Assembly: GCA_030829545.1 (NCBI GenBank) | Contig: JAURAI010000001.1 | Span: 4,123-68,122, forward strand | Origin: Poseidonia sp. | Lineage (GTDB): Archaea > Thermoplasmatota > Poseidoniia > Poseidoniales > Poseidoniaceae | Direction of reading: 5' to 3' | Length of the DNA stretch: 64,000 nt | Shown: in pieces, positions 11,745 through 22,124 of the stretch | Layout of the letters: each line of letters starts with the position of its first letter | Numbering within the stretch: position 1 is the first letter of the stretch | Position numbers and translations under genes: made by a program | Notes under the pieces: model-generated | The model's input: only the letters and a program-made list of their open reading frames with translations | Told to the model about the DNA's origin: nothing | The model's database searches: none

Positions 11745-12500
11745 TCAGAGGGCGTTACGGTTTGTTTTGCAACCCACTCCCCAATCGGGATTGTCCTCCA
11801 TCGCAACCTTAGTTTCTTCCAAAAGGGACTCTTCCGCATTCATAGGACGGTGTTCTTGGCCAGTCGTTGCTACGGCAATTCTGTACCCATTATATTCGTA
11901 ATAATCCAATTGAATTTTTGAATTTTCAATTGAAATAATTTGATTATCATTTTCAATTGAAAGTTGAATATCCCTGGGATTGAGATGCATCCCCAAACCC
12001 ATTGATTTTTGCACAGCTTCTTTCTTGACCCACATCCGCATTGCATGCTGAGGCAGAGACTTCAACTCGGCCAATTCGTCTCCTTTGGCCATGAGGTCAA
12101 AGGCATTCGTCGCAAGCCTTCGTTCAAGCAATTCACCATCAATCCCAATACTGACCCCTGCAGGTGCAAGAGCAACAAATGCATGACCCCCTGAATGGCC
12201 GATCGACACAGAGGGCAGGGGTGTACGCTGCCAAACACCTTGGATGTATGCCAATCGTGGCGCTCGGAACTCATCTCGCTGTATTTCGAGATACGAAAGA
12301 TCTCCACAACCCCATTGTTTGAGGGCTAAGCCCAGTAAATACCGGCCACTGAGATGTTCTCGCCTCCTTTTTTCTGTCACAAAGGTAGCCACTTCATTCG
12401 GGTTTGCAAGTGGCACCATGTCCAATGAAAGGTCCAGCAAGGGCATCATGAAGGCCCGATGAGTAGCGCCAAGAGGGATTTCGACAACACTCGAATCCAT
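11745..12500 (-). CDS. 4'-phosphopantetheinyl transferase (Sfp-type)
   Basis: VSIGHSG, IGIDGE, WVKKEAVQKS motifs; 12 bp downstream of the PKS. Confidence 0.88.
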   Translation of the reverse strand: MDSSVVEIPLGATHRAFMMPLLDLSLDMVPLANPNEVATFVTEKRRREHLSGRYLLGLALKQWGCGDLSYLEIQRDEFRAPRLAYIQGVWQRTPLPSVSIGHSGGHAFVALAPAGVSIGIDGELLERRLATNAFDLMAKGDELAELKSLPQHAMRMWVKKEAVQKSMGLGMHLNPRDIQLSIENDNQIISIENSKIQLDYYEYNGYRIAVATTGQEHRPMNAEESLLEETKVAMEDNPDWGVGCKTNRNAL

Positions 12501-12512
12501 AACCTCACCGGA

Positions 12513-15500
12513 TCATCGGTCAAGCGAGAAGCGCTGACCCTCATCTACCTGCGCCATTGCCTTGAGCTCCAAGCCCTTCAAGGCGAGCACGGGGGCATCA
12601 TCGTCACCGACCACGAGAACGTCGTGAACGGTCACACCGTCATCCTTTGCAGAGGTCTGAACGCTTCTCAAGCGCAGCGTTTCATGTTGCTCGGGTACGC
12701 GTAACATGGTCGACCACATAATGCCGACCGGCAGACTGCTAAATCCAAGCGTCTCCATGGCAACGAGGCCAGCATTCTGGAAGCCCGATTCAATCAACAT
12801 TGGGAGTGATTCAAGCAGAACCTTTTCGCCTTCAGACTCACTTGCAAACTGGTCGATCTGTGGGAGTTGATGTCGCATCAATGCCACACCGTCAATGCCC
12901 ATGAGTTCCTCATCTCCAACTCCACGGATGACACCGCCGTGTGATTGGAAGCGTGGACCGTGGAAGTATCGGCTGTAAATGAAGTCTGGATTGTGAATGA
13001 GGGCTCCCGGTGCAGGAGTGCCGATAGTGGGCAGTTCGTCTACTTCACGCTGAAGGAAAGGACACAGGTCGTCACATTTCTCAACCAAACGTACCAGTGC
13101 AACATGGTGCTCACGCTCACCAAAGACTTCACCTTTTGAATTGCTCAAGTCCGATACCAAATGGCATCGAACCCAGGTCATATCTCCTTCTTGACGTTCA
13201 ACCTCAGCCTTGATACGGACCGTCATCGGCCCTTTCAATAATTTGACAGGCAAGCCAAAGCGTACCTCTTCAAATCCAGCCAGACACGTAGAAGGTCGCA
13301 ACAGCAATGCATTTTGCGCAAACATCTCGAGAGCCATCACGCCTGGATGGTAGGGGACATCATCGATGGCGTGGTCAATCAAGAAGGGGTGGTCTTGCGT
13401 TGAGAGCGTTGTCTGCGTGGTGATGCTTTGCCCTTCTTCAACCGTTAATACCCGGTCAATGAAGGGGAAACGTGCAGGGTCTGCAATCGTAGCAGCCATT
13501 CCCGGTGGGAGTTTGAGAGGTGCATCCCTGAATGAATTGAAGCGGTCCATGAGTCCCAAGGAACCGCAACCGATGACGCGACGTTTTCCTCCTCGAAGTG
13601 CCTCATCAACGAAAATATTGACTCCGTCTTCAACGGCGAGAGTATCGATTCCAGCAGCAGCGAAGACGGCTTCAATCGACCCACGTGTGGCCATCCCGAC
13701 GTCTCTCCAGCCTGTCCATCCAATGGCAACGCCTCTTCCTTGACCCGCAGCCGTGATGCGAGCCATTTCAGCGTCGAGGACTGAGTTCGCTGCAGCATAA
13801 TCTGTTTGCCCGCCGTTACCAAAACGACCAGCGACACTTGTGAAGCAACAGGCGAAGTGAGGAGCGTCCAAACCTGACGCCTTCACCGCTCCAAGCAAGG
13901 CTCTCCAACCGTCGACCTTGACACGAACGACCCGATCAAAGGTTGAGTAAGCCTTGTCTTCAACAAGTTTCGAATCTTCCAAACCTGCACCGTGGACAAC
14001 ACCGGTAATCGTTCGTCCAAGTTCACTGCCCAAAGTAGCTAAACCTTCGCTGTCCATCACGTCAATGGAATGGTAGGTGGCTTTGTTGCCTGTTTGTTCA
14101 ATGGCATGAAGGGTGAGGTAAACATCTCTGCTTCGGGTGAATGATTGCCAAGAAGCATTCCATTCAACCATGGTGACCTTCCCCGTTTCACTGGCTGCCA
14201 ACATTCGCTCCCGCAGGGCATTCTTTTCCTCTTCCAGTTGGGCAGCATCCCATTCGATCCAGTCTTTCGTGGACTCGATCAGTCGTGACCTACCGAGTAA
14301 CTCGAAATGAGCACCCGCATTACGGCTTGCTGTGGCGACACCGATGATGGAGGCCGCCGTAACTCCCGAGCCACCGCCTGAAACGAGCCAAGTATCGGCG
14401 GATGTGAGCGGTGTGAGTTCATCTACAACATCTTCAGCAAAGGCAACTAACGTCCAACGTCGTCCGTCTCGGTCGAGGCCAATTTCAACCTCGCCATCAA
14501 GTTCGAACAGGTCGCTTTCGATACGGGCGGCTGCAAGATCTTCATTGAACACGAGGTCGGGGTGAAGGTCAAGCGCTCTGCATCGGACATCGGGACGCTC
14601 AAAAGCATAGGATTTCGTTACGCCTGACGCTGCGCACTGAACGGAATTGAAGCGGTCGCCGAGGTTCCCATGTCGCCCATCCATGGCGGTAACAGAAGCA
14701 ACGAATGCATGTTTTCCTTCGGCCAATTGGCTGTTCAACTCTTTGAGAAGACCGAACCAGCCATGACCTGATAGCGCTATTTGGGAAGAAGGATAGGTGT
14801 CCTCATCCCACTGCTCAGAGGCTAATTTCATGGAGGCCATGTGAACCAAACCAGCGAGGGGCGTATCTGCAAGTTGTTGAGCGATCCACGCAATGTGTTC
14901 TGGCTGCTCAGGGTCGGCACGGTAGACCGTTCGGCCCCCTTCATCGAGGACGGATGGGTCACGTATTCGACTTTCAAAGCCAACACGAATGGCCTTCAAA
15001 CCGCGTTCTTCCATTCGACGGCAGAAGGCTTCTGCAATGCCCCACCCGTCATCGGTGACGAGCACCGTTCCACTGACATCCAACAGCGAAGGTGTTCCGG
15101 GACAATCCTCAACTTCAATTTGCCAGCGACGGGTGCCTTCAACCGTGGATTGACTTGCTATTGGTTGAGGGCTTGCTGGGCTTGTTGGTGCGTCCACCTC
15201 TGCGGGAACGGAGACCGATGCACCACCTTGCATCTTGGTGATGTAGGCAGTGAAGTGGTTCAAGGTGGGGTGGTCCGAGAGAACAAAATCCTCGTCCACC
15301 GGTAGGGCAAAGCGATCTCGAATCTCAGCCATAATCTCAGCCTGTTTGACCGTGTCAATCCCCAATTCCCCTTCGAGGTCCTGGTCAAGTTCAATGAAAT
15401 CAGCTGGATATCCAGTATGACTGACGACAACCTCAATCAACACTGCTTCGATATCTGGATTTGATGCCGCAGGAATCACTTCTGCCTTGACAGGTTCAAC

Positions 15501-21317: not shown

Positions 21318-21323
21318 TTCACC

Positions 21324-22124
21324 TCAATTCATGATGCTCTCGGGCACCATCGTAATCGAATACCCAGCGTCGACGTAAATGCACTGCCCCGTTACGCCCG
21401 AGGACAGCGGGCTCGAGAGCCAGAGCGTAGCTCCTGCCACATCTTCTTGGCTGACATTTCGTCGCAAAGGAGCATTGGCTTCAACATGGTCGAGAATACG
21501 GTCGAAGCCTGGAATGCCCCCCGCAGCGATGGTACGAATGGGTCCCGAGGAAATGGCATTGATACGATGTCCTTCTGGGCCGAGGTGGCATGCCAATTCT
21601 CGCGTCCAGCATTCAAGGGCAGCCTTTGCCATGGACATGATGCCGTAATTAGGGACGTATCGGTTAGATGCAGCATAGGTAAGCGTGACCGTTGAAGAGC
21701 CCGGGTTGAGATAGGGCAAAGCGTGTTTAAGACAACGCTGAAGGGAATTCGCCGAGATGGTCATGGCGGTGTTGATGTCTTGGTCTTCGACGAAGAGAAT
21801 GGGGCGGTCAAAGCAAGCACGAGGTGCAAAACCAATGGCGTGTATGAGGATATCCGCCTTTTTACCGGGGTGGTCTTTTGCGAATGCCGTGAAGAATTCA
21901 GCCGTTGATTCATCCCCAGCGACGTCAAGTGGATAGAATCCGTCGATGGCGGGCAACTCGTCTTTGAGCTTGAAAACTCTGCTCATGAATCGCTTCTGGT
22001 ATCCCAAATAGAGGGTCACTCCAGCCGCTGCTAATTGTTTGCAAATGGCCCAAGCGATGGAGTCCTCACTGGCCACCCCGAAAACAAAGGCTGTTTTTCC
22101 TTCTAATCCAATCATGAAAAACAC
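21324..22124 (-). CDS. fabI: Enoyl-ACP reductase (FabI family)
   Basis: GVASEDSIAWAI, HAIGFAP, YGIMSMAKAALE, NAISSGPIRT. Confidence 0.9.
   Translation of the reverse strand: MFFMIGLEGKTAFVFGVASEDSIAWAICKQLAAAGVTLYLGYQKRFMSRVFKLKDELPAIDGFYPLDVAGDESTAEFFTAFAKDHPGKKADILIHAIGFAPRACFDRPILFVEDQDINTAMTISANSLQRCLKHALPYLNPGSSTVTLTYAASNRYVPNYGIMSMAKAALECWTRELACHLGPEGHRINAISSGPIRTIAAGGIPGFDRILDHVEANAPLRRNVSQEDVAGATLWLSSPLSSGVTGQCIYVDAGYSITMVPESIMN

What the first reader, a model, noticed from the sequence alone, without database searches (positions are those of the whole stretch)
11745..22124. Self-contained fabI-PKS-PPTase operon: an ACP-dependent megasynthase in an archaeon
Seen: three co-directional genes with 6- and 12-bp gaps, encoding FabI, a 2934-aa KS-AT-KS-ACP3-KR-DH protein and an Sfp-type PPTase, embedded among archaeal genes (carS about 2 kb away, cdc6). 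Established: archaea make isoprenoid ether lipids and generally lack ACP-based FAS/PKS; bacterial Pfa synthases use a PfaD-type enoyl reductase rather than FabI. Inference: a minimal fully reducing iterative synthase with a trans-acting ER that makes long acyl/alkyl chains, possibly for mixed membranes. The AT motif HAFH suggests malonyl-CoA, and no thioesterase domain is present.
Basis: partly seen in the sequence, partly recalled or inferred. Interest (0 to 1): 0.92.

Follow-up and report, generated by a model that had tools for sequence, protein, structure and literature searches.

The report
Archaeal fatty-acid-type megasynthase with threonine carriers
A marine Group II archaeon carries a conserved three-gene set that looks like a complete bacterial-style fatty-acid factory, and its carrier domains unusually have threonine where all known ones have serine, which could help explain what membranes these abundant ocean archaea build.

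Summary
On the minus strand lie FabI (21324-22124), a 2934-aa KS-AT-KS-ACP3-KR-DH protein (12513-21317) and an Sfp-type PPTase (11745-12500), with 6- and 12-bp gaps, among archaeal genes.

It is not a chimeric insert. Composition is flat. The operon sits in the same TBP-TatD neighbourhood in three families of the order. The KS2 domain was found in 192 of 286 genomes, and FabI follows the same genus pattern.

It belongs to a large, apparently undescribed PfaA-like family (545 clusters at E<=1e-30). Relatives occur in other Thermoplasmatota and in MAGs labelled Asgard and Myxococcota. Many fuse the PPTase to the C-terminus, and some fuse an NMO-type enoyl reductase to the N-terminus.

Best reading (0.6): an iterative, fully reducing, malonyl-fed synthase of saturated acyl chains, with FabI acting in trans and a dedicated PPTase. 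The product, its release and its membrane role are untested.

Prior literature only alludes to a "putative fatty-acid pathway" in MGII and to PKS counts. I rate it a new variant of a known kind, interest about 0.78.

The parts
21324..22124 (-). FabI-type enoyl-ACP reductase. It is 266 aa from GTG 22124, and the likelier start is ATG 22115 (263 aa). Y150, Y160 and K167 are present.
   Evidence: Pfam PF13561 scores 232 bits. The NCBIfam FabI models are the best hits but fall below their cut-offs (219.7 vs 391). The top 60 PDB hits are all enoyl-ACP reductases, the best being 1ulu_A at E 2.9e-58 over the full length. Start codon.
12513..21317 (-). 2934-aa type I synthase with the domain order KS1-AT-KS2-ACP-ACP-ACP-KR-DH.
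   Evidence: The reading frame is open, as it is in relatives.
19878..21257 (-). KS1 (res 21-480), with C228, H362 and H401.
   Evidence: Pfam ketoacyl-synt and Ketoacyl-synt_C. TIGR02813 PfaA best stretch is 22-943. PDB type I PKS KS-AT hits. Residues read.
18516..19409 (-). Acyltransferase (res 637-934), with GHSLG S735 and HAFH 837-840.
   Evidence: Pfam Acyl_transf_1, 123.7 bits. FabD TIGR00128, 196 bits, below its cut-off. Motifs read. Their meaning (malonyl) is recalled.
16338..17846 (-). KS2 (res ~1158-1660), a divergent FabF-like ketosynthase that keeps C1363, H1511 and H1551.
   Evidence: Second ketoacyl-synt stretch. Best PDB hits are FabF at E 3e-27, with the Cys/His/His columns aligned. 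It forms its own clade far from KS1.
15930..16133 (-). ACP1, motif LGIDTV with Thr1759 at the attachment position.
   Evidence: PF00550 hits. The Thr aligns with the DS serine of PigH, ACP and AcpM.
15588..15791 (-). ACP2, Thr1873.
15240..15443 (-). ACP3, Thr1989.
13701..14117 (-). Ketoreductase core (res 2401-2539; the domain probably runs from about 2290 to 2590), with Y2507-AAAN.
   Evidence: Pfam KR, 78.5 bits. PDB PKS KR hits.
12516..13466 (-). PKS-type dehydratase (res 2618 to the C-terminus), with candidate catalytic H2649.
   Evidence: Pfam PKS_DH_N, 32 bits. Relatives also hit PS-DH over the second half. The motif reading is recalled.
11745..12500 (-). Sfp-type 4'-phosphopantetheinyl transferase (251 aa), with H102, D121, E123, W157, K160, E161 and K165.
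   Evidence: Pfam ACPS 33 bits and 4PPT_N. Invariant motif residues in 12 orthologues. Model pLDDT 84.8. Foldseek hits to AASDHPPT, Sfp, PptT and PptAb at E 1.9e-10 to 1e-6.

Best explanation
The three genes form one vertically inherited archaeal operon. It encodes a self-sufficient, iterative, fully reducing type I synthase of the PfaA/HglE kind. The steps I infer are these:

1. The adjacent Sfp-type PPTase converts the three tandem carrier domains to their holo form. It does so, unusually, on a threonine (T1759, T1873, T1989).
2. The AT loads malonyl units.
3. The two catalytically intact ketosynthases (KS1 PfaA-like, KS2 a family-specific FabF-like domain) prime and elongate.
4. KR and the PKS-type DH process the beta-carbon.
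5. The separately encoded FabI reduces the enoyl intermediate in trans.

The product would be a saturated, or mostly saturated, long acyl chain. With no TE, the chain is probably handed directly to an acyltransferase. A 538-aa AGPAT-family protein that co-varies with the synthase is the candidate. The chain would go into glycerol-3-phosphate-based lipids.

Shown: gene order, domains, conserved catalytic residues, conservation, co-occurrence, and fusions in relatives. Inferred: Thr modification, chain type and length, release route, and membrane role.
For: - Domains and catalytic residues.
- These are the only carrier domains and the only PPTase found in G000. No FabA/FabZ and no NMO-type ER were found there.
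- Synteny orf268-TBP-TatD-FabI-synthase-PPTase holds in 4 of 5 loci from two other families, and FabI is adjacent in 5 of 5.
- KS2 was found in 192 of 286 genomes of the order at >=80% completeness. FabI orthologues were found in 52 of 70 at >=90%, absent from the same genera g7, g24, g5, g8 and g10.
- Relatives fuse the partners. The PPTase domain is present in 136 of 260 distant members, and blastp of the window's PPTase hits 109 of their C-termini. An NMO/FabK-type ER is fused at the N-terminus in Asgard-labelled and f25 proteins. FabI lies directly upstream in an f9 locus.
- Thr is the norm: 361 DTV motifs in 121 close proteins, and 722 Thr, 19 Ser and 6 other in 747 ACP domains. All four Thr codons are used, and Ser appears as TCN.
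- PPTase catalytic residues are kept in 122-125 of the 125 fused proteins whose carriers are all Thr.
- Complex prediction of PPTase+CoA+Mg+ACP1 scored 0.93 against a best control of 0.65 (3 controls). That mark was reached by 58 of 80 solved complexes and 2 of 110 mismatched pairs. The runs agreed in 100% of contacts and the partner pLDDT was >=88. D43-T44-V45 touch PPTase residues 103, 123, 157 and 161. Similar complexes are already solved, so this may be memory.
- Malonyl-CoA supply is plausible: biotin carboxylase in the window and three carboxyltransferases in the genome.
- A GpsA-like G3P dehydrogenase is present.
- The 538-aa acyltransferase is in 22 of 25 synthase-positive and 0 of 7 synthase-negative genomes (read).
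Against: - No product, no modification and no clean expression data exist. RNA-labelled libraries hold pieces only as contigs, which do not show transcription.
- Thr at the attachment site could mean the carriers are not pantetheinylated. As I recall, E. coli ACP S36T is not a substrate of AcpS.
- PfaA and FabI curated cut-offs are not reached.
- The 264-aa PlsC-like gene and the 547-aa acyltransferase occur equally in genera without the synthase.
- PlsX and PlsY were not found, in a genome that is 73.7% complete.
- The 538-aa candidate is missing from three synthase-positive genomes (G146, G027, G030).
- Kin are not independent, so the co-occurrence counts overstate support.
- The role of two active KS domains is unexplained.
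- antiSMASH-type surveys file such clusters as T1PKS/hglE-KS (PMC10434046, a retracted paper, one passage). That filing would fit a specialised glycolipid instead.
Confidence: 0.6

Rival explanations
1. The same enzyme set makes a specialised secondary lipid rather than bulk membrane fatty acids. Candidates are an HglE-like long-chain hydroxy or keto alkyl chain for a glycolipid, an envelope or storage lipid, or a hydrocarbon precursor.
For: - The architecture is closest to PfaA/HglE-type 'secondary lipid' synthases.
- Survey papers count T1PKS/hglE-KS clusters in Poseidoniaceae (PMC10434046, retracted, one passage).
- Six genera of the order lack the synthase and FabI yet keep the PlsC-like gene, so the synthase is dispensable for life in this order.
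- There is no TE, PlsX or PlsY.
Against: - The full KR-DH-ER set with a conserved FabI points to full reduction.
- The synthase is near-universal in the window's family, 155 of 162 genomes.
- It sits in a housekeeping neighbourhood.
- No glycosyltransferase, reductase or tailoring genes are in the operon.
Confidence: 0.28
2. It is a polyunsaturated fatty acid (Pfa) synthase.
For: The best NCBIfam hit is TIGR02813 PfaA (883.7 bits), and the ACPs are tandem.
Against: - The score is below the cut-off of 1010.1, and the best stretch covers only KS-AT.
- There is no FabA-type dehydratase/isomerase, no PfaB or PfaC, and no NMO/PfaD-type ER in the operon or found in G000.
- An extra KS lies between the AT and the ACPs.
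Confidence: 0.03
3. The operon is a bacterial fragment mis-assembled or mis-binned into an archaeal MAG.
For: The nearest non-archaeal relatives carry bacterial (Myxococcota/Deltaproteobacteria) MAG labels.
Against: - GC is flat.
- Tetranucleotide correlation with the rest of the window is 0.939, within the 0.915-0.976 range of 16 other windows.
- The same archaeal flanks are found in three families.
- The synthase is present in 24 of 24 genomes of the genus sampled.
- Independent contigs from other runs bridge the PPTase/synthase, synthase/FabI and FabI/upstream junctions.
Confidence: 0.01
4. The Thr carriers are not modified, and the protein works without phosphopantetheine or is a relic.
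For: Ser is regarded as universal at this site (recalled). No paper holding any of six phrasings of threonine phosphopantetheinylation was found.
Against: - Open frames and 45-82% identity hold across the order.
- A hydroxyl residue is kept in 741 of 747 domains.
- Intact PPTase domains are fused to 125 proteins that have only Thr carriers.
- Synonymous Thr codons vary.
Confidence: 0.06

Closest known systems
PfaA subunit of bacterial PUFA synthases (TIGR02813)
   Same: Shares the KS-AT head, tandem ACPs, a KR followed by a PKS-type DH, an iterative malonyl-fed mode, and a dedicated Sfp-type PPTase (PfaE) in the cluster. It is the best NCBIfam hit.
   Different: The score is below the curated cut-off. 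An active second KS lies between the AT and the ACPs. There is no PfaB or PfaC and no FabA-type DH. The ER is FabI rather than PfaD/NMO-type in this lineage. The carriers bear Thr, not Ser.
HglE-type heterocyst glycolipid synthases (antiSMASH class hglE-KS)
   Same: A PfaA-like KS-AT-ACP-KR core. Survey papers report this class in Poseidoniaceae (PMC10434046, retracted, one passage).
   Different: No HglC/HglD-type partners, terminal reductase or glycosyltransferase are in the operon. A full ER step is present. Membership could not be tested here, because antiSMASH is not available.
Enediyne PKSE and fungal type I FAS (synthases with a built-in PPTase)
   Same: Relatives of the window's protein fuse the PPTase to the C-terminus, 136 of 260. 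This resembles PKSE (KS-AT-ACP-KR-DH-PPTase, recalled) and yeast FAS, whose PPT domain appears among the fold hits.
   Different: In the window the PPTase is a separate gene. PKSE has one ACP, no ER and no second KS, and it makes a polyene.
Bacterial type II FAS (FabD/F/G/Z/I plus AcpP and AcpS)
   Same: Shares the same chemistry, a FabI-type ER with Tyr-x6-Lys, and a KS2 most like FabF among solved structures.
   Different: All steps but the ER are on one polypeptide. There is no free ACP, FabH or FabZ in the genome. The PPTase is Sfp-type, not AcpS-type.

Membership tests
PUFA synthase PfaA (TIGR02813) | Whole-protein score at or above the curated cut-off | tested here: not met
   883.7 bits against a cut-off of 1010.1. 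The best stretch covers 22-943 only.
PUFA synthase PfaA (TIGR02813) | Works with PfaC-type FabA-like dehydratase/isomerase domains and a PfaD (NMO-type) ER | tested here: not met
   None in the operon. PF07977 and PF03060 were not found in G000, which is 73.7% complete.
PUFA synthase PfaA (TIGR02813) | Domain order KS-AT-ACPn-KR-DH with tandem ACPs | tested here: inconclusive
   Three tandem ACPs and KR-DH are present, but an extra KS sits between the AT and the ACPs.
Iterative type I PKS/FAS | KS, AT, ACP and beta-carbon processing domains on one polypeptide, with catalytic residues | tested here: met
   All Pfam domains score above their cut-offs. C228/H362/H401, S735, C1363/H1511/H1551, Y2507 and H2649 were read. 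The KS2 triad is aligned to FabF.
FabI enoyl-ACP reductase | Family HMM and the Tyr-x6-Lys active site | tested here: met
   PF13561 scores 232 bits against a cut-off of 27. Y160-x6-K167 aligns with T. thermophilus FabI 1ulu.
FabI enoyl-ACP reductase | NCBIfam equivalog cut-off | tested here: not met
   The best model, NF005615, scores 219.7 against 391. So this is a divergent FabI-like clade.
Sfp-type (type II) PPTase | ACPS family hit, two-lobed fold, and conserved Mg/CoA and W-x-x-KEA-x-x-K motifs | tested here: met
   PF01648 scores 33.0 against a cut-off of 25. Invariant D121, E123, W157, K160, E161 and K165. Foldseek hits to AASDHPPT, Sfp and PptT over 215-242 columns.
Sfp-type (type II) PPTase | Transfers phosphopantetheine to its carrier | not testable with these tools
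   Only a modelled complex is available (score 0.93, best control 0.65).
Phosphopantetheine-binding carrier domain (PF00550) | Family HMM | tested here: met
   93.2 bits and three stretches. 37-40.5 bits each.
Phosphopantetheine-binding carrier domain (PF00550) | Conserved serine as the attachment site | tested here: not met
   Thr is at the aligned position in all three domains.
HglE-type glycolipid synthase | antiSMASH hglE-KS rule and HglC/D, reductase and glycosyltransferase partners | not tested
   No such tool was available here. No such neighbours appear.

The most novel reading that the evidence does not exclude
A very large, unnamed family of all-in-one fatty-acid-type synthases uses carrier domains that are phosphopantetheinylated on threonine by their own dedicated PPTases. 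This would be the first natural O-phosphopantetheinyl-threonine. The family spans Poseidoniales, other Thermoplasmatota, and MAGs labelled Asgard and Myxococcota. In Marine Group II archaea this enzyme would be the de novo source of straight-chain acyl groups for G3P-based ester or mixed ether/ester membranes. That would give a genetic basis for a natural breach of the lipid divide in one of the most abundant archaeal groups of the surface ocean.
Probability: 0.3. Interest if true: 0.92.

Novelty: new variant of a known kind. Interest (0 to 1): 0.78.

Why it matters
No culture of Marine Group II exists, and its lipids are unknown. One lipid study concluded that MGII archaea do not seem to make any known archaeal membrane lipid (PMC6962369, passages). 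None of 270 MAGs encodes the enzyme that makes glycerol-1-phosphate, while nearly all genera encode G3P dehydrogenase (PMC6461757, passage).

A compact, conserved three-gene unit that should be enough to make acyl chains turns that question into a cloning experiment. Separately, a Thr at the carrier attachment site, conserved across hundreds of sequence clusters together with intact dedicated PPTases, would change a textbook rule of carrier-protein biochemistry. It would also matter for genome mining and for PPTase engineering.

The patchy distribution invites study of repeated transfer of a whole lipid pathway between domains. The family is near-universal in the window's family, lost from streamlined genera, polyphyletic among archaea, and nearest to Myxococcota-labelled sequences.

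Tried and rejected
- **Chimeric insert:** rejected.
- **PUFA synthase:** rejected.
- **My own error on a fused FabI:** I first read the precomputed PF13561 tags of Myxococcota-labelled relatives as a fused FabI. Pfam on P0274 put that hit on the KR domain. blastp of the window's FabI found 0 hits in 260 distant members. I therefore withdrew that reading.
- **orf375 as part of the pathway:** rejected. 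It has a signal peptide, a C-terminal membrane anchor and an acidic tail, and no Pfam hit.
- **Promoter and terminator scan:** uninformative. The numbers were near those of shuffled sequence, and sigma-70 patterns do not apply to archaea.
- **A PPTase residue co-varying with Ser versus Thr carriers:** none found. Only 2 all-Ser proteins carry a fused PPTase.
- **Expression:** runs X5 and X6 (RNA-labelled, two studies) hold 93-99%-alike contigs over parts of all three genes. Contigs cannot show transcription, and X1 and X2 are probably DNA. Gaps in cover mean nothing.
- **Literature (10 of 10 searches used):** no paper describing this synthase family, its KS-AT-KS order or a Thr carrier was found in the held library. 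Villanueva et al. 2017 is not held and is known to me only through citing passages. Supplements are closed. Rinke et al.'s Fig. S13-S15 and supplementary text may list fatty-acid genes that I could not see.
- **Taxon names:** the labels of relatives are MAG labels given by the sources and may include binning errors. The family and genus codes f1, f3 and so on cannot be matched to names.

Full report
**1. Observation**

Three minus-strand ORFs lie at 21324-22124, 12513-21317 and 11745-12500, separated by 6 and 12 bp.

- **ORF 1.** Pfam calls it an enoyl-ACP-reductase-type SDR (PF13561, 232 bits).
- **ORF 2.** Pfam finds KS (21-480), AT (637-934), a second KS, three PP-binding stretches, KR (2401-2539) and a PKS dehydratase (2618-2708).
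- **ORF 3.** Pfam finds ACPS (33 bits against a cut-off of 25) and 4PPT_N.
- No thioesterase family is listed.
- NCBIfam's best hit for the large protein is PfaA (TIGR02813, 883.7 bits, below the 1010.1 cut-off; best stretch 22-943). FabI models lead for ORF 1 but fall below their cut-offs.
- The likelier FabI start is ATG 22115.

Residues read from the printed translation:

| Domain | Residues |
|---|---|
| KS1 | C228, H362, H401 |
| AT | GHSLG with S735; HAFH 837-840 |
| KS2 | C1363, H1511, H1551 |
| KR | Y2507 |
| DH | H2649 |

KS2 aligns with FabF structures (best E 3e-27) with the triad columns matched. KS1-AT matches type I PKS structures, and the KR matches PKS ketoreductases. All 60 listed PDB hits of ORF 1 are enoyl-ACP reductases. 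The best is 1ulu_A at E 2.9e-58, and Y160-x6-K167 is aligned.

**2. Host and authenticity**

The neighbours are archaeal: CarS (8834-9487), TBP (24293-24856) and Cdc6 (41151-42392). A 99%-identical protein is labelled Poseidonia sp. by NCBI.

- GC is flat.
- The operon's tetranucleotide profile correlates 0.939 with the rest of the window. Sixteen other equal-sized windows range from 0.915 to 0.976.
- The synthase was found in 33 of 41 relatives: f1 24/24, f2 2/2, f3 6/14.
- Five loci from the two other families were fetched. The order orf268-TBP-TatD-FabI-synthase-PPTase is kept in 4 of 5, and FabI is adjacent in 5 of 5. Identities to the window are FabI 63-75%, synthase 45-57% and PPTase 28-36%.
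- Contigs from other public runs bridge the gene junctions.

The operon is therefore old and archaeal in this order, not an assembly artefact.

**3. Distribution and co-occurrence**

- With KS2 as query, 192 of 286 genomes of the order (>=80% complete) match: f1 155/162, f2 2/2, f3 34/121. Six genera have no match at all: g7 0/16, g24 0/14, g25 0/9, g5 0/12, g8 0/11 and g10 0/21.
- FabI orthologues (E<=1e-70) occur in 52 of 70 genomes at >=90% completeness. They are absent from g7, g24, g5, g8 and g10.
- In G000 (73.7% complete), the only PP-binding domains and the only PPTase found are those of the operon. The only strong KS hits are the two in the synthase.
- No FabA/FabZ, NMO-type ER, PlsX, PlsY or TE above cut-off was found in G000.
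- Three carboxyltransferases, a biotin carboxylase in the window and a GpsA-like G3P dehydrogenase are present.

**4. The wider family**

A search of 1.84 billion cluster representatives with KS2 gave 8699 hits at E<=1e-3 and 545 at E<=1e-30. The best 150 are mostly 2400-4000 aa, with KS2 about 1000-2100 residues in. blastp shows the same collinear order, KS-AT-KS2-ACPn-KR-DH.

Source names place close relatives of one sister-group member in MAGs labelled Myxococcota, Myxococcales or Deltaproteobacteria. A few are labelled Alphaproteobacteria or Pseudomonadota, and three proteins are labelled Asgard group archaeon.

A phylum sample (>=85% complete) gave 48 of 121 genomes with a match. These include other Thermoplasmatota families: f9 7/8, f16 12/12 and f25 3/3. 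Eight such loci show the same architecture.

The partners recur in fused form:
- ACPS/4PPT_N at the C-terminus.
- An HMM of the window-type PPTase finds such a domain in 136 of 260 distant members.
- blastp of the window's PPTase hits 109 of them.
- An NMO/FabK-type ER is fused at the N-terminus in Asgard-labelled proteins and in an f25 locus. There is a sub-threshold NMO hit in an f16 N-terminus.
- A FabI orthologue (50% identity) lies directly upstream in an f9 locus.

FabI is never fused: 0 hits in 260. My earlier reading of a fused FabI was wrong. The PF13561 tag lies on the KR.

A KS2 tree was built from 67 rows chosen out of the roughly 275 sequences I held, with quick IQ-TREE, LG+G4 and SH-aLRT support, rooted on two KS1 rows.
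- The Poseidoniales sequences form one clade (7 rows, support 97).
- With unlabelled P0127 that clade has support 100.
- It joins a 17-row clade (support 100) of Myxococcota-, Delta- and Alpha-labelled sequences at support 92.
- The other Thermoplasmatota (except the f25 row, which lies apart) and the Asgard-labelled rows sit in a separate 27-row clade (support 97).

The archaeal copies are thus polyphyletic on this tree. The direction of transfer is not resolved.

**5. The threonine**

All three ACPs read LGIDTV. The Thr aligns with the DS serine of PigH, ACP and AcpM.

- The 121 close proteins hold 361 DTV motifs.
- Within the order, two loci (G033, G030) have GIDSI instead.
- Among 260 distant members, 747 ACP domains were found in 240 proteins. 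Of these, 722 have Thr, 19 have Ser and 6 have something else (3 gaps, D, G, P). By protein, 224 are all-Thr and 5 are all-Ser.
- In 23 loci the Thr codons are ACG 39, ACC 15, ACT 6 and ACA 1, and the Ser codons are TCA 4 and TCG 3.
- In the 125 all-Thr proteins with a fused PPTase, the catalytic positions are kept: H102 125, D121 125, E123 123, W157 122, K160 124, E161 124 and K165 124 of 125.

A hydroxyl is thus conserved at the site, and an intact PPTase is maintained where only Thr carriers exist. I infer that Thr is the attachment residue.

The PPTase model (pLDDT 84.8, pTM 0.78) matches AASDHPPT (E 1.9e-10, TMq 0.62), Sfp, PptT and PptAb.

A modelled PPTase-CoA-Mg-ACP1 complex scored 0.93 against a best control of 0.65, out of 3 controls. 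That mark was reached by 58 of 80 solved complexes and 2 of 110 mismatched pairs. The runs agreed in 100% of contacts and the partner pLDDT was at least 88. ACP residues 43-45 (D-T-V) touch PPTase residues 103, 123, 157 and 161. PPTase-carrier complexes are already solved, so the pass may reflect likeness only.

Two literature searches for threonine pantetheinylation found nothing. That Ser is universal at this site, and that E. coli ACP S36T is not modified, are recalled and not tested here.

**6. Release and fate**

There is no TE. Three PF01553 acyltransferase genes exist in G000.

- The 264-aa PlsC-like gene occurs in 45 of 49 genomes, including synthase-less genera.
- The 547-aa gene occurs in 29 of 32 genomes.
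- The 538-aa gene occurs in 22 of 32 genomes. Read, that is 22 of 25 synthase-positive and 0 of 7 synthase-negative genomes. It is missing from G146, G027 and G030.
- The ESM Atlas places the 538-aa gene with AGPAT-family clusters, mostly from Thermoplasmatota. This is a lead only.

These counts come from related genomes and overstate independence.

**7. Literature**

[quoted passage not shown] It cites Villanueva et al. 2017, which is not held.
- PMC6461757 (passage): none of 270 MAGs encodes the G1P-forming enzyme, and all genera but one encode G3P dehydrogenase.
- PMC10434046 (retracted; one passage): lists T1PKS, HglE-KS and resorcinol clusters in Poseidoniaceae.
- PMC11051675 (passages): counts PKSs in Thermoplasmatota and Asgardarchaeota.
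- The preprint 10.1101/2025.10.24.684404 (passages): reports alkB in MGII, not this synthase.

None describes the architecture, the fusions or the Thr.

**8. Verdict**

The system works like a PfaA/HglE-type iterative synthase run in fully reducing mode. It fails the membership tests for PfaA proper.

It is a new variant of a known kind. Two points deserve follow-up. It is a testable candidate for the fatty-acid source of MGII lipids, and it belongs to a family-wide set of threonine carriers.

Noticed in passing
window 35667-39999: About 13.5 kb from the operon lie three minus-strand genes: a biotin carboxylase (35667-37040), a FA_hydroxylase-family protein (37071-38126) and a FAD/NAD-binding reductase (38752-39999). 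They could supply malonyl-CoA or modify lipids.
   Followed up: no
G000 contig 9, 42640-44253 (locus L020:1369-2982): A 538-aa AGPAT-family acyltransferase has a presence pattern that largely follows the synthase: 22 of 25 positive and 0 of 7 negative genomes. The Atlas places it in Thermoplasmatota-rich AGPAT clusters.
   Followed up: partly
L028, L033, L035 (Thermoplasmatota family f16): In these arrays one carrier motif, the first listed in each locus, has Ser (TCG), while the rest have Thr (motif order also). This hints at a functional split within the tandem array.
   Followed up: no
window 2974-8583 and 25653-31577: Two giant ORFs. One is a 1869-aa subtilase-domain protein. The other is a 1974-aa protein with no Pfam hit, whose C-terminal part is kept (30-31% identity) next to the same neighbourhood in family f3.
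   Followed up: no
window 22234-23361: orf375 has a signal peptide, a C-terminal membrane anchor and a strongly acidic tail. It is present between TatD and FabI only in f1, and weakly in f2. One contig of run X1 lacks 9 bases at 22324.
   Followed up: partly
window 9640-11744: Two plus-strand ORFs converge on the PPTase gene (546 aa and 155 aa, overlapping by 4 bp). Neither has a Pfam hit.
   Followed up: no
P0002 residues ~1040-1115 (window ~17973-18200): Between the AT and KS2 lies a stretch that by eye resembles a degenerate carrier domain (GLGLTPHEV where GxDS would sit). Some relatives have real Thr carriers between KS1 and the AT instead.
   Followed up: no
G064, G033, G012, G126: Single in-frame TAG or TGA codons lie inside matches to the 538-aa and 547-aa acyltransferase genes in four relatives. 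They could be sequencing errors, pseudogenes or recoding.
   Followed up: no
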